Assembly: GCF_054482595.1 (NCBI RefSeq)
Contig: NZ_CM137008.1
Direction: 5' to 3' (one strand)
DNA length: 64,000 nucleotides
The position numbers were made by a program. How positions within the stretch are numbered: position 1 is the first letter of the stretch; each line of letters begins with the position of its first letter. Of this stretch, positions 28,316-31,300 are shown one piece after another.

Positions 28316-31300
28316 TCAGCCCGCTTGCCTGCTCCAGCCGCGCGCAAATGTCTTTAAAGTTAAAAGTATGCGGCCCCATCAATACCGGAATAGCGTGTGC
28401 GGCAGCTTCCAGCGGATTATGCCCACCACGTTCAACCAGTGAACCGCCAACAAAGGCGAGATCGGCAATGCCGTACAGTAACATCAACTCGCCCATCGTA
28501 TCGCCAACCACAACCTGCGTGCTGGTGGAGGGGACTTCCCCTGAAGAGCGTGTGATATAGCTTAGTCCAGCCTGGCGGACAAGATTAATCGCATCCGGGA
28601 AGCGTTCTGGATGACGGGGTACCAGGATGAGCAATAAATTCGGGAATTGCTGTAACAATGCCTGATGTGCGGCAATGACCACGCTCTCTTCACCTTCGTG
28701 AGTGCTGGTGGCAATCCATACCGGGCGGTGTGGTGCCCACTGGCGGCGCAGCGTCACGGCTTTAGCAGCCAACTGCGGCGTTACAGAAATATCGAATTTC
28801 AGGCTACCGGTAACGGTCACCTGATTATTTTTTGCGCCCAGCGCCACAAAACGTGCACCATCTTCTTCATTTTGCGCAGCAATCAGCGTAATACGACGCA
28901 GCAAGCGACGGACGAATTTACCCAGTTTGGCATAACCTGCGGCCGAGCGGGCAGAGAGTCGCGCGTTAGCGATCACCAGCGGAATTTTACGTTTGTGTAG
29001 CGCCGCAATCAGGTTAGGCCATAGTTCGGTTTCCATAATCAACACCAGTTTGGGGTCGACTTTATTCAGGAAACGGTTGAGCGCATCGGGCAGGTCATAC
29101 GGCAGATAAACGTGCTGAACATCCTTCCCGAAAGCCGATTGTACGCGCTCCGAACCGGTTGGCGTCATGGTTGTAACGGTAATCGGTAAATCAGGATAAC
29201 GATGGCGCAGCGCGCGCACCAACGGGATCGCCGCCAGAGTTTCACCGACGGAGACGGAGTGCAGCATAATGCCGCCTGGTTTTAGCGGATGGCGGTAAAA
29301 ACCGTAACGTTCACCCCAGCGTTTTCGATAGGCCGGAGCCTTACGTCCGCGCACCCAGAGCCGTATCCAGATCAGCGGCTGAATAAGGTAGAGAAGGGCG
29401 GTGTAAAGCAATTCGAGCATAGTAAATAGCTGACTTATGGATGTGCTGGGGATTCTATGTATTTAGCTGTGGCTTTACCATTACTTTTCCCGTTTTTGAC
29501 TTAAATAGCAATTTACCCGCCAATTCTTGCTGAACATCTATACTTTTTTTGTATTTTTATGCGATTCATTGATTTCTGCTGTACGTGCAGGAAGGAATCG
29601 CAGAGCAACAGTGAAAGAATATGGTTGCTAATGATTTTATTTGATTGATTTCTTTATTGAAAATCAACAATGTGCTTAAAAATCATTCGGGTCGGATTGC
29701 CGCGAAAGAAGTGATACACTAGCGCGTCAATATCAGTGCGGTATCAGTATTCAGGTAGCTGTTGAGCCTGGGGCGGTAGCGTGCTTTTTCTGCTTCACCT
29801 TAATCGGATAATCTCAACAAAAAGAGTTACTTGTGGATAAGCCATTTCGAAGAATTTTGCTCATTAAGATGCGTTTTCATGGGGATATGTTATTAACTAC
29901 TCCCGTCATTAGTTCGCTGAAAAAAAATTACCCTGACGCAAAAATCGATGTGCTGCTTTATCAGGACACCATCCCGATCCTGTCTGAAAATCCAGAGATT
30001 AACGCGCTCTACGGCATAAAAAATAAAAAAGCAAAAGCCTCAGAAAAAATTGCCAACTTTTTTCATCTCATCAAGGTATTACGTGCCAATAAGTATGACC
30101 TTATCGTCAATCTTACCGATCAATGGATGGTTGCTATACTGGTTCGCTTATTAAATGCTCGTGTGAAAATTTCCCAGGATTATCATCATCGGCAGTCTGC
30201 TTTTTGGCGTAAAAGTTTCACCCATTTGGTGCCGTTGCAGGGTGGAAATGTGGTGGAAAGTAACTTATCCGTGCTGACACCATTGGGACTTGATTCGTTG
30301 GTGAAGCAGACAACCATGAGTTACCCGCCTGCAAGCTGGAAACGTATGCGTCGCGAACTTGATCACGCTGGTGTTGGACAAAATTATGTGGTTATCCAAC
30401 CTACGGCGCGGCAAATCTTCAAATGCTGGGACAACGCCAAGTTTTCCGCTGTGATTGATGCCTTACATGCTCGTGGTTATGAAGTCGTTCTGACGTCCGG
30501 CCCAGATAAAGACGATCTGGCCTGCGTCAATGAAATTGCGCAGGGATGCCAGACGCCACCAGTAACGGCGCTGGCTGGAAAGGTGACCTTCCCGGAACTT
30601 GGTGCGTTAATCGATCATGCGCAGCTGTTTATTGGCGTTGATTCCGCACCGGCGCATATTGCCGCTGCAGTTAATACGCCGCTGATATCGCTGTTTGGTG
30701 CGACAGATCATATTTTCTGGCGTCCCTGGTCAAATAACATGATTCAATTCTGGGCGGGAGATTACCGGGAAATGCCAACGCGCGATCAGCGTGACCGAAA
30801 TGAGATGTATCTTTCGGTTATTCCGGCGGCAGATGTCATTGCTGCTGTCGATAAATTACTGCCCTCCTCCACGACAGGTACGTCGTTATGATCGTTGCTT
30901 TTTGTTTATATAAATATTTTCCCTTTGGCGGTTTGCAGCGTGATTTTATGCGTATTGCTCAGACAGTCGCCGCCCGAGGTCATCATGTTCGGGTTTATAC
31001 CCAGTCGTGGGAAGGCGAATGCCCTGATGTATTTGAACTGATCAAAGTGCCGGTTAAATCGCATACCAATCACGGGCGCAATGCGGAGTATTTTGCCTGG
31101 GTGCAAAAACATTTACGCGAACATCCCGTCGATAAAGTCGTTGGATTCAACAAAATGCCGGGGCTGGACGTTTATTATGCCGCTGATGTTTGTTATGCCG
31201 AGAAAGTAGCGCAGGAAAAAGGCTTTTTCTATCGCCTGACGTCACGTTATCGCCATTATGCCGCCTTTGAGCGGGCAACCTTCGAACAGGGTAAGCCGAC

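What the first reader, a model, noticed from the sequence alone, without database searches (positions are those of the whole stretch)
29760..29790. ops (JUMPStart) element in the waaQ leader
The exact 12-mer GGCGGTAGCGTG sits about 50 bp upstream of waaQ. ops recruits RfaH to suppress polarity across long LPS and capsule operons. Its presence, together with waaL being on the same strand, implies the whole 8.9-kb waaQ-to-waaL transcript depends on RfaH.
Basis: partly seen in the sequence, partly recalled or inferred. Interest (0 to 1): 0.25.

Follow-up and report, generated by a model that had tools for sequence, protein, structure and literature searches.

The report
RfaH loading site before waaQ
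This is the textbook ops/JUMPstart signal in the leader of the E. coli LPS-core (waaQ) operon, where the anti-termination factor RfaH boards RNA polymerase; it is real, conserved and already well known.

Summary
GGCGGTAGCGTG sits at 29772-29783 (+) and is unique in the window. It is the 3' end of a full 39-nt JUMPstart element at 29745-29783 (Rfam RF01707, 55.2 bits against a gathering score of 35).

It lies in the 412-bp waaA-waaQ intergenic region, on the non-template strand and outside any ORF. It ends 49 nt before the waaQ GTG, about +46 to +57 of the transcript by homology to the annotated K-12 rirA/waaQ 5' end.

The window is an E. coli chromosome, 3 mismatches from strain XH990, with an R4-type core locus: waaQ-G-P-O-T-Y-W-X-L. 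These are nine tightly packed co-directional genes spanning 8.86 kb, with GC falling to about 30% at the distal end.

The 74-nt leader is present in 5424 of 5426 complete E. coli genomes and rfaH in 5425. The same element precedes waaQ orthologues in 11 other named genera.

In CFT073 the promoter-proximal leader is identical, and published ChIP-seq shows RfaH riding the rfa unit and RNA polymerase collapsing distally in a rfaH deletion.

Verdict: already known, low interest.

The parts
29712..29720 (+). Inferred extended -10 promoter element TGaTACACT of the waaQ/rirA promoter
   Evidence: It lies 6 nt upstream of the position that aligns with the 5' end of the annotated MG1655 rirA. The block GTGnTACACTA is conserved in waaQ leaders of most enterobacterial genera aligned. 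It was not found by the consensus promoter scan, which requires a -35. This is inference only.
29727..29799 (+). Equivalent of the 73-nt sRNA RirA, i.e. the 5' part of the waaQ leader; 29727 is the inferred transcription start
   Evidence: MG1655 annotates ncRNA rirA (b4760) at 3808166-3808238. The pairwise alignment maps this to about 29727-29799. K-12-type leaders are 91.8% identical to this stretch. [quoted passage not shown]
29745..29783 (+). JUMPstart element (39 nt)
   Evidence: Rfam RF01707 matches at 55.2 bits against a gathering score of 35, covering model positions 1-38 of 38.
29752..29770 (+). JUMPstart RNA stem-loop: CAGGU / GCCUG stem with a 9-nt loop
   Evidence: This is the structure line of the Rfam alignment. 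RNAalifold recovers it independently on 17 waaQ leaders. The second stem pair covaries (A-U, U-A, G-C, G-U) in 89 JUMPstart copies and in the 17 leaders. The stem ends 12 nt upstream of the ops pause position.
29772..29783 (+). ops element GGCGGTAGCGTG on the non-template strand; the expected pause is at U11 = 29782
   Evidence: Exact and unique match. The roles of the individual bases and the U11 pause come from PMC5995543.
29822..29826 (+). Weak Shine-Dalgarno-like AAGAG, 6 nt before the GTG start
   Evidence: Read directly from the sequence. It is conserved as AAGAG in most aligned waaQ leaders. Reviews describe RfaH targets as lacking a canonical ribosome-binding site (PMC6358824).
29833..30891 (+). 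waaQ (rfaQ), heptosyltransferase III, GTG start
   Evidence: NCBIfam NF007742 at 714 bits, aligned over residues 1-351. The RefSeq annotation of the near-identical XH990 record agrees.
30888..32012 (+). waaG (GT4 glucosyltransferase I); overlaps waaQ by 4 nt
32005..32802 (+). waaP (heptose I kinase); overlaps waaG by 8 nt
   Evidence: NCBIfam NF011703 at 482 bits; annotation.
32818..33834 (+). waaO (GT8)
   Evidence: NCBIfam NF011718 at 612 bits.
33851..34846 (+). GT8 glycosyltransferase; called waaT in the R1/R4 nomenclature (the name is from my own knowledge)
   Evidence: Pfam Glyco_transf_8 plus 8C. It is 98.5% identical to the CFT073 protein.
34856..35548 (+). waaY (heptose II kinase)
   Evidence: NCBIfam NF007684 at 400 bits.
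35574..36602 (+). waaW (GT8)
   Evidence: Pfam GT8. The published R1/R4 waaW typing primer matches at 36443-36462 (PMC13293308).
36634..37407 (+). waaX (GT25 beta-1,4-galactosyltransferase), the R4-specific gene
   Evidence: Pfam Glyco_transf_25, E = 1e-51. The R4 waaX primer matches at 36804-36822, giving the published 380-bp in-silico product (PMC13293308).
37442..38695 (+). waaL (O-antigen ligase, R4 type), the last gene of the operon
   Evidence: Pfam Wzy_C; annotated as O-antigen ligase. It is only 34% identical to the R1 ligase of CFT073.
38711..38737 (+). Terminator-like 12-bp hairpin between the convergent waaL and waaC
   Evidence: Terminator scan. The T-run is weak, and whether it stops RfaH-modified polymerase is unknown.

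Best explanation
The 12-mer is the operon polarity suppressor (ops) of the waaQ LPS-core operon, embedded in a complete JUMPstart element in the untranslated leader.

The proposed mechanism runs as follows.
1. Transcription starts about 45 nt upstream, inferred at about 29727 from an extended -10 promoter.
2. When RNA polymerase reaches ops it pauses at U11 (29782).
3. The non-template strand GGCGGTAG folds into a small hairpin on the polymerase surface, and RfaH binds it.
4. RfaH opens up, stays on the polymerase for the rest of the unit, excludes NusG, suppresses pausing and backtracking, and recruits a ribosome to the weakly initiating GTG start of waaQ.
5. This protects the AT-rich 8.9-kb waaQ-G-P-O-T-Y-W-X-L transcript from Rho-dependent and H-NS-promoted premature termination.

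Without RfaH, expression falls progressively with distance. The distal R4-specific genes waaX and waaL should be hit hardest.

The same leader RNA (about 29727-29799) corresponds to the sRNA RirA, which carries ops and can bind and titrate RfaH.

Shown here: the sequence, position, strand, conservation, family membership and operon architecture. Taken from the literature: pausing, RfaH binding and the loss of polymerase in a rfaH deletion. Inferred: the transcription start in this strain, and the effect on waaX and waaL.
For: - **Motif:** the 12-mer is exact and unique.
- **Family match:** full-length Rfam JUMPstart hit at 55.2 bits against a gathering score of 35, the only one in the window.
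- **Location:** intergenic, in no ORF, on the same strand as waaQ, 49 nt before the GTG.
- **Transcribed leader:** it maps inside the annotated MG1655 rirA/waaQ 5' UTR at +46 to +57.
- **Within-species conservation:** the 74-nt leader is present in 5424 of 5426 complete E. coli genomes, and 4412 are at least 99% identical. rfaH is present in 5425 of 5426.
- **Cross-genus conservation:** in a 120-locus cross-species sample, 89 loci are JUMPstart-like. Sixteen of these have a WaaQ orthologue (50-81% identical) as the first downstream ORF, in Escherichia and 11 other named genera including Pectobacterium. In most of them the ops-to-start distance is about 35-50 nt.
- **Structure:** the stem covaries.
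- **Operon architecture:** nine co-directional genes with gaps of -8 to +34 nt. GC is 39% against 50% for the window, falling to 30-32% in waaX and waaL. The only strong terminator-like hairpin follows waaL.
- **Tested relative:** the CFT073 intergenic region is 408/412 identical, with all differences upstream of 29691, and seven of nine proteins are 93-99.7% identical.
- **Literature:**
  - RfaH ChIP-seq on the CFT073 rfa unit, and loss of RNA polymerase in a rfaH deletion (PMC9765446).
  - Base-by-base ops function and the non-template-strand hairpin (PMC5995543).
  - waa as an RfaH- and Rho-controlled operon (PMC5449661).
  - RirA (PMC6358824, PMC5736990, PMC8745692).
Against: - Nothing was measured in this strain or in any R4-type strain.
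- The transcription start is inferred by homology to a K-12 annotation. The consensus promoter scan proposed a different, weaker site at 29657-29686. Either start leaves ops inside the transcribed leader.
- Internal promoters in the AT-rich distal genes cannot be excluded, so waaX and waaL may not be fully dependent on read-through from the waaQ promoter.
- Published effects are graded: the travelling ratio in the rfaH deletion, relative to wild type, is 0.1-0.34 at 5.4 kb.
- The cross-species loci were selected by an exact pattern that includes ops. Conservation of those 18 bases in that set is therefore by construction.
Confidence: 0.93

Rival explanations
1. The element works mainly as RNA. 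The leader is released as the sRNA RirA, which binds RfaH (with RNA polymerase) and titrates it. On this reading the locus is primarily a negative feedback device limiting LPS synthesis, rather than a DNA loading site.
For: The window holds a 92%-identical equivalent of the annotated K-12 rirA that contains ops and JUMPstart. Published overexpression of RirA mimics a rfaH deletion, and binding requires ops (PMC6358824, PMC5736990). The JUMPstart stem covaries, which suggests selection at the RNA level.
Against: RfaH recruitment through the non-template DNA strand is shown structurally and biochemically (PMC5995543). ChIP-seq shows RfaH travelling with polymerase along rfa (PMC9765446). The RirA effects come from overexpression. 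The two roles are complementary rather than exclusive. The predicted fold of the 73-nt RNA is no more stable than shuffles (z = -0.46).
Confidence: 0.3
2. The leader is an attenuator. Upstream leader RNA (29735-29748) pairs with the ops RNA (29773-29785) to form a long hairpin followed by a U-run (29785-29789). This hairpin ends transcription early, yielding RirA, unless RfaH has been loaded.
For: The minimum-free-energy fold of 29727-29799 is exactly this hairpin. On 17 waaQ leaders from Escherichia and 11 other named genera, 90% of cells in the outer and middle helices pair, against 30-51% when partners are slid. Several one-sided changes keep pairing: U-G to C-G, G-U to A-U. A T-run after ops is specific to waaQ leaders of the Escherichia-Citrobacter-Kluyvera-Pluralibacter-Cedecea group.
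Against: - The structure was derived from this sequence, and the 3' arm is invariant by the way the loci were selected.
- RNAalifold does not choose it.
- The fold is not more stable than shuffles.
- The terminator scan does not call it.
- The annotated RirA 3' end lies about 9-14 nt beyond the stem and U-run, which is not where intrinsic termination is expected.
Confidence: 0.12
3. Chance or relic motif with no function in this genome.
For: The 8-mer core GGCGGTAG occurs five more times in the window at non-leader sites. Short ops-like strings therefore do occur without function. PMC9765446 reports 34 unbound ops-like sites within coding regions in CFT073.
Against: - The full 12-mer is expected 0.01 times in the window.
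- It sits in a full-length JUMPstart.
- It occupies a conserved position before waaQ across genera.
- It is present in essentially every E. coli genome.
Confidence: 0.01

Closest known systems
ops element of the E. coli K-12 / CFT073 waaQ (rfaQ) operon, an RfaH recruitment site
   Same: The 12-mer GGCGGTAGCGTG is identical. So are the position before waaQ and the strand. The whole leader from 29691 to the start codon is identical to CFT073, and the RirA stretch is 92% identical to K-12.
   Different: The downstream operon is the R4 core type. It ends in waaX and an R4 waaL instead of waaV and an R1 waaL (CFT073). In K-12 the operon ends in waaU and waaL sits in the opposite rfaD-waaF-waaC-waaL unit.
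JUMPstart RNA motif (Rfam RF01707)
   Same: Full-length match at 55.2 bits. It has the conserved 5-bp stem with a covarying second pair, followed by G plus ops.
   Different: None of substance. waaQ leaders carry an extra degenerate upstream half-copy (CAGTGCGGTATC, 29733-29745) and a T-run after ops, neither of which is in the generic motif.
RirA sRNA (b4760) of E. coli K-12
   Same: It is the homologous 5' part of the waaQ leader, including ops and JUMPstart, with the same inferred 5' end.
   Different: There are 6 mismatches or indels over 73 nt, including one T fewer in the T-run. Expression in this strain is not known.
Other RfaH-controlled leaders (rfb/wzx, kps, hly, tra, wza)
   Same: They share the same ops consensus in a 5' leader of a long, AT-rich, H-NS-bound cell-surface operon (PMC9765446). 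In the cross-species sample most JUMPstart copies precede other ORFs, whose identity was not determined.
   Different: The downstream genes and the sequence flanking the core differ. The ops-to-start distance is much longer at hly, about 600 nt (PMC9765446).

Membership tests
ops (RfaH recruitment element) | 12-nt consensus GGCGGTAGnnTG, including the pause-inducing TG at positions 11-12 | tested here: met
   Exact GGCGGTAGCGTG at 29772-29783; the consensus is taken from PMC5995543.
ops (RfaH recruitment element) | Lies on the non-template strand of the regulated unit | tested here: met
   The motif is on the + strand, and all nine genes from waaQ to waaL are on the + strand.
ops (RfaH recruitment element) | Located in the transcribed, untranslated 5' leader: downstream of the promoter and upstream of the first start codon | tested here: met
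   No ORF overlaps it. It ends 49 nt before the GTG. It falls inside the stretch homologous to the annotated rirA/waaQ 5' UTR. The transcription start itself is inferred, not measured.
ops (RfaH recruitment element) | Precedes a long, AT-rich cell-envelope or virulence operon | tested here: met
   The operon is 8.86 kb with nine LPS-core genes. GC is 39% against 50% for the window.
ops (RfaH recruitment element) | The genome encodes RfaH | tested here: met
   rfaH is not in the window. It is found in 5425 of 5426 complete E. coli genomes. The window is 3 mismatches from strain XH990. Presence in this exact genome is therefore inferred.
ops (RfaH recruitment element) | RNA polymerase pauses at U11, RfaH binds there and stays bound; distal expression drops without RfaH | not testable with these tools
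   This is shown in the literature for the ops consensus (PMC5995543). It is also shown in vivo for the CFT073 rfa unit, whose proximal leader is identical (PMC9765446).
JUMPstart (Rfam RF01707) | Covariance-model score at or above the gathering threshold over the full model | tested here: met
   55.2 bits against 35, covering model positions 1-38 of 38.
JUMPstart (Rfam RF01707) | Conserved stem-loop immediately 5' of ops, with compensatory changes | tested here: met
   The CAGGU/GCCUG stem is present. The second pair is seen as U-A, A-U, G-C and G-U. RNAalifold recovers the stem.
RirA sRNA | Sequence homologous to the annotated 73-nt K-12 rirA, sharing the waaQ transcription start and containing ops | tested here: met
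   (91.8% identity to K-12-type copies).
RirA sRNA | A discrete short transcript accumulates and binds RfaH | not testable with these tools
   Reported for K-12 only (PMC6358824, PMC5736990). The primary paper (PMC5087721) is not held.
R4 core-type waaQ operon | waaX (GT25) between waaW and waaL; a 380-bp product with the published R4 typing primers | tested here: met
   Pfam GT25. The primers match at 36443-36462 and 36804-36822, giving 380 bp (PMC13293308).

The most novel reading that the evidence does not exclude
The waaQ leader may be more than a loading site. A conserved long RNA hairpin could pair the upstream leader (29735-29748) with the ops RNA itself (29773-29785), followed by a U-run. 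This would form an RfaH-sensitive attenuator that produces RirA whenever RfaH fails to load. That would couple RfaH availability to LPS-core and, in R1/R4 strains, O-antigen ligase expression through a built-in feedback loop.
Probability: 0.12. Interest if true: 0.35.

Novelty: already known. Interest (0 to 1): 0.08.

Why it matters
This element explains how E. coli completes transcription of its long, AT-rich LPS-core operon. It is a paradigm for NusG-paralogue recruitment, but it has been known since the 1990s and nothing here changes that picture.

The one locus-specific point concerns the R4 (and R1) layout. There the O-antigen ligase gene waaL is the most distal gene of the RfaH-dependent unit. 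O-antigen display should then depend on RfaH twice: through the rfb operon and through waaL. In K-12, by contrast, waaL belongs to the separate rfaD-waaF-waaC unit.

That matters modestly for rfaH-attenuated vaccine strains and for RfaH as a drug target. The operon architecture itself is already published.

Tried and rejected
- **Primary RirA paper:** I looked for Klein et al. 2016 (PMC5087721) to obtain the mapped 5' and 3' ends. It is not held, so I used the MG1655 RefSeq rirA annotation instead.
- **Promoter scan:** the consensus scan did not find the conserved extended -10. It proposed TTGAAA-18-AATCAT at 29657-29686, whose -35 is not conserved in K-12. I did not adopt it, but ops is downstream of either start.
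- **RNA folding of the leader:** the results are not distinguishable from shuffles (z = -0.46, +0.56 and +0.32). Thermodynamics alone therefore gives no support for structure.
- **DNA folding of the 12-mer:** this gives a weak mini-hairpin (-0.9 kcal/mol, z = -2.15). Its register differs from the published non-template-strand hairpin, so I did not use it as evidence.
- **Extended leader hairpin:** it pairs well across genera but is not chosen by RNAalifold. I kept it only as a low-probability rival.
- **The five other GGCGGTAG 8-mers:** I checked them as possible extra ops sites. All are rejected, because none is in a leader and none has TG at positions 11-12.
- **Protein-guided search:** I did not run a search for waaQ loci in genome contigs.
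Full report
**1. 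Observation**

The sequence at 29760-29790 reads tgttgagcctggGGCGGTAGCGTGcttttt. The 12-mer GGCGGTAGCGTG is at 29772-29783 on the + strand. It occurs once in the 64-kb window on both strands, against 0.01 expected from dinucleotide-preserving shuffles. The degenerate consensus GGCGGTAGNNTG has no second exact match, and its one-mismatch matches are at chance level: 4 found against 3.09 expected.

The 8-mer core GGCGGTAG occurs six times against 1.06 expected. The other five copies are not in leaders:
- 10502 (+) sits in a hairpin between the convergent gltS and recG.
- 18872 (+) is antisense in yicG.
- 22430 (-) is antisense in pyrE.
- 24698 (-) is sense inside coaBC.
- 55484 (-) is sense inside lldP.

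None of the five has TG at positions 11-12.

**2. What surrounds it**

The window is an E. coli chromosome. It differs at 3 of 64000 positions from NZ_CP019359.1 (strain XH990) 64001-128000.

The motif lies in the 412-bp gap between waaA (28143-29420, - strand) and waaQ (GTG at 29833, + strand). No ORF of 20 aa or more overlaps it.

Rfam's JUMPstart model (RF01707) matches 29745-29783 end to end at 55.2 bits against a gathering score of 35. This is the only JUMPstart in the window. The 12-mer is therefore the 3' end of a complete 39-nt JUMPstart. A 5-bp stem (CAGGU/GCCUG, 29752-29770) ends one base before ops.

**3. The operon downstream**

Nine co-directional genes follow:

| Gene | Coordinates | Basis |
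|---|---|---|
| waaQ | 29833-30891 | NCBIfam |
| waaG | 30888-32012 | annotation |
| waaP | 32005-32802 | NCBIfam |
| waaO | 32818-33834 | NCBIfam |
| GT8 (waaT by R1/R4 nomenclature, from my own knowledge) | 33851-34846 | Pfam |
| waaY | 34856-35548 | NCBIfam |
| waaW | 35574-36602 | Pfam, primer match |
| GT25 = waaX | 36634-37407 | Pfam, primer match |
| O-antigen ligase waaL | 37442-38695 | Pfam, annotation |

These assignments rest.

- Gaps between genes run from -8 to +34 nt.
- From the waaQ start to the waaL stop is 8863 nt.
- Promoter-like sites inside the operon are not enriched: 28 found against 31.6 expected.
- The only strong terminator-like hairpin (12 bp, 38711-38737) lies just after waaL, before the convergent waaC.
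- The published R4 typing primers match at 36443-36462 and 36804-36822. They give the published 380-bp product, so this is an R4 core locus (PMC13293308).
- 690 of 5426 complete E. coli genomes cover at least 80% of the operon.
- Operon GC is 39% against 50% for the window. It falls from 47-48% in waaQ, waaG and waaP to 30% in waaX and 32% in waaL.

**4. Is ops in a transcribed leader?**

MG1655 carries an annotated 73-nt ncRNA rirA (b4760, 3808166-3808238) between waaQ and waaA. Aligned to the window, it corresponds to about 29727-29799. [quoted passage not shown]

This places ops at +46 to +57 and the expected pause position U11 at 29782. Six bases upstream of 29727 lies TGaTACACT (29712-29720), an extended -10. 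It is conserved in waaQ leaders of most genera aligned.

The promoter assignment is an inference. The consensus scan instead proposed 29657-29686. With either start, ops is downstream of the promoter.

**5. Conservation**

Within E. coli:
- The 74-nt leader (29727-29800) is present in 5424 of 5426 complete genomes.
- 4412 copies are at least 99% identical, and 956 are 90-95% identical, among them K-12-derived strains.
- The rfaH gene is present in 5425 of 5426 genomes.

- 89 loci have the JUMPstart 3' arm. The rest are mostly chance hits in GC-rich genomes.
- In 16 loci the first downstream ORF is a WaaQ orthologue, 50-81% identical.
- These come from Escherichia, Citrobacter, Silvania, Kluyvera, Pluralibacter, Kosakonia, Pseudescherichia, Shimwellia, Enterobacter, Cedecea and Pectobacterium.
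- In most of the 16, ops ends about 35-50 nt before the start codon.

The 18 pattern bases are conserved in this set by construction. The CAGT box, the stem, the position relative to waaQ and the upstream -10 block are not.

The second stem pair covaries (U-A, A-U, G-C, G-U). RNAalifold recovers the stem on its own.

**6. Mechanism**

From the literature:
- All RfaH-controlled operons carry a 12-nt ops in their leaders.
- The flanking bases, including T11 and G12, cause a strong pause.
- Bases 3-8 of the non-template strand form a small hairpin that RfaH reads (PMC5995543).
- RfaH then stays on RNA polymerase, excludes NusG, opposes Rho and H-NS-promoted termination, and recruits the ribosome (PMC9765446, PMC5449661, PMC6358824).

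In CFT073, RfaH ChIP-seq signal covers the rfa unit downstream of its single leader ops. RNA polymerase occupancy falls towards background at the distal end in a rfaH deletion. The relative travelling ratio at 5.4 kb is 0.1-0.34 or less for wzx, kps and rfa. Ops-like sites in coding regions are not bound (PMC9765446).

I compared that locus with the window:
- The intergenic region is 408/412 identical, and all four differences lie upstream of 29691.
- The layout is the same nine genes.
- Seven proteins are 93-99.7% identical.
- Only the last two differ: waaV against waaX, and waaL at 34% identity.

The mechanism is thus transferred from a directly tested, near-identical locus. Its extension to waaX and waaL, 6.9-8.9 kb from ops, is inference. 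The tight gene packing and very low GC of those genes support it.

Two further points. The weak AAGAG at 29822-29826 and the GTG start fit the poor intrinsic translation initiation described for RfaH targets. In K-12, waaL belongs to the opposite rfaD-waaF-waaC-waaL unit, so placing the ligase at the far end of the RfaH-dependent unit is a feature of the R1/R4 layout.

**7. Rivals**

- **The RirA decoy role.** This is complementary rather than alternative.
- **An attenuator reading.** The minimum-free-energy fold of 29727-29799 pairs 29735-29748 with the ops RNA and is followed by a U-run.
  - For: 90% of cells pair across 17 leaders, against 30-51% for slid controls, with one-sided changes that keep pairing.
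  - Against: the structure was derived from this sequence, its 3' arm is fixed by the selection of loci, RNAalifold does not choose it, it is no more stable than shuffles, and the annotated RirA end lies beyond where intrinsic termination would be expected.
  - I give it about 0.12.
- **Chance.** This is excluded.

**8. Verdict**

The finding is real and correctly interpreted, and it is textbook knowledge: the ops/JUMPstart of the waaQ operon. Novelty: already known. Interest: low.

Noticed in passing
window 10502-10509 (+), 18872-18879 (+), 22430-22437 (-), 24698-24705 (-), 55484-55491 (-): The 8-mer ops core GGCGGTAG occurs 6 times in the window against 1.06 expected from shuffles. The five extra copies are in coding regions or in a convergent intergenic hairpin, and all lack TG at positions 11-12. 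The coaBC copy (GGCGGTAGCGCA, sense strand) matches 10 of 12 bases. The reason for the excess was not determined.
   Followed up: partly
window 29735-29748 pairing with 29773-29785, U-run 29785-29789: Upstream leader RNA can pair with the ops RNA to form a long hairpin that encloses the JUMPstart stem and is followed by UUUUU. About 90% of cells pair in 17 waaQ leaders, against 30-51% for slid controls. RNAalifold does not predict it, and it is no more stable than shuffles. It is a possible attenuator or RirA 3'-end determinant.
   Followed up: partly
window ~29510-29680: The middle of the waaA-waaQ intergenic region is essentially unalignable between this strain and K-12 MG1655. Both flanks, the waaA-proximal 110 bp and the promoter/leader from about 29678, are conserved. 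This suggests a replaced segment between the divergent promoters.
   Followed up: no
window 29833 versus 29869: RefSeq/PGAP and the NCBIfam model use the GTG at 29833 as the waaQ start. MG1655 annotates the ATG 12 codons downstream. The codons between the two are conserved as protein across genera, which favours the GTG.
   Followed up: partly
window 29833-38695: There is a strong GC gradient along the operon: 47-48% in waaQ, waaG and waaP; 35-38% in waaO, waaT, waaY and waaW; 30-32% in waaX and waaL. This is consistent with a mosaic origin, with horizontally exchanged distal genes.
   Followed up: no
L001 (NZ_CP026085.1, labelled E. coli DH5alpha): This 4.83-Mb record labelled DH5alpha carries an R1-type waa operon (waaV-like GT2 plus ligase in the waaQ operon), not the K-12 type expected of DH5alpha. 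The strain label or the assembly is probably wrong.
   Followed up: no
L045 (Arthrobacter sp. GMC3, 4155-bp contig, coverage 2), L104 (Erysipelotrichia MAG), L119 (Thomasclavelia MAG): Canonical enterobacterial JUMPstart sequences occur on contigs assigned to Gram-positive taxa. This is most likely contamination or mis-binning rather than true occurrence.
   Followed up: no
window 1429-1730: tRNA-Sec (selC; 1640-1730 on the - strand, Rfam 83.8 bits) has a partial rhuM pseudogene fragment next to it. This looks like the remnant of an island at the selC integration hotspot.
   Followed up: no
window 57445-61388: The XH990 annotation lists three features here: a frameshifted, N-terminally truncated YadA-family trimeric autotransporter adhesin (upaG/ehaG homologue), an ESPR signal-peptide fragment, and a pseudogene with an internal stop. 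In CFT073 the same site holds an intact 5.3-kb upaG. One of the 3 window-versus-XH990 mismatches (58730) lies in it.
   Followed up: no
L004, L025, L115 (Shewanella) and L062 (Aeromonas): JUMPstart-like elements with a shorter loop (GGTAGCAAGTGCCATGGGCGGTAGCGTG) occur outside Enterobacterales. Their downstream genes were not examined.
   Followed up: no
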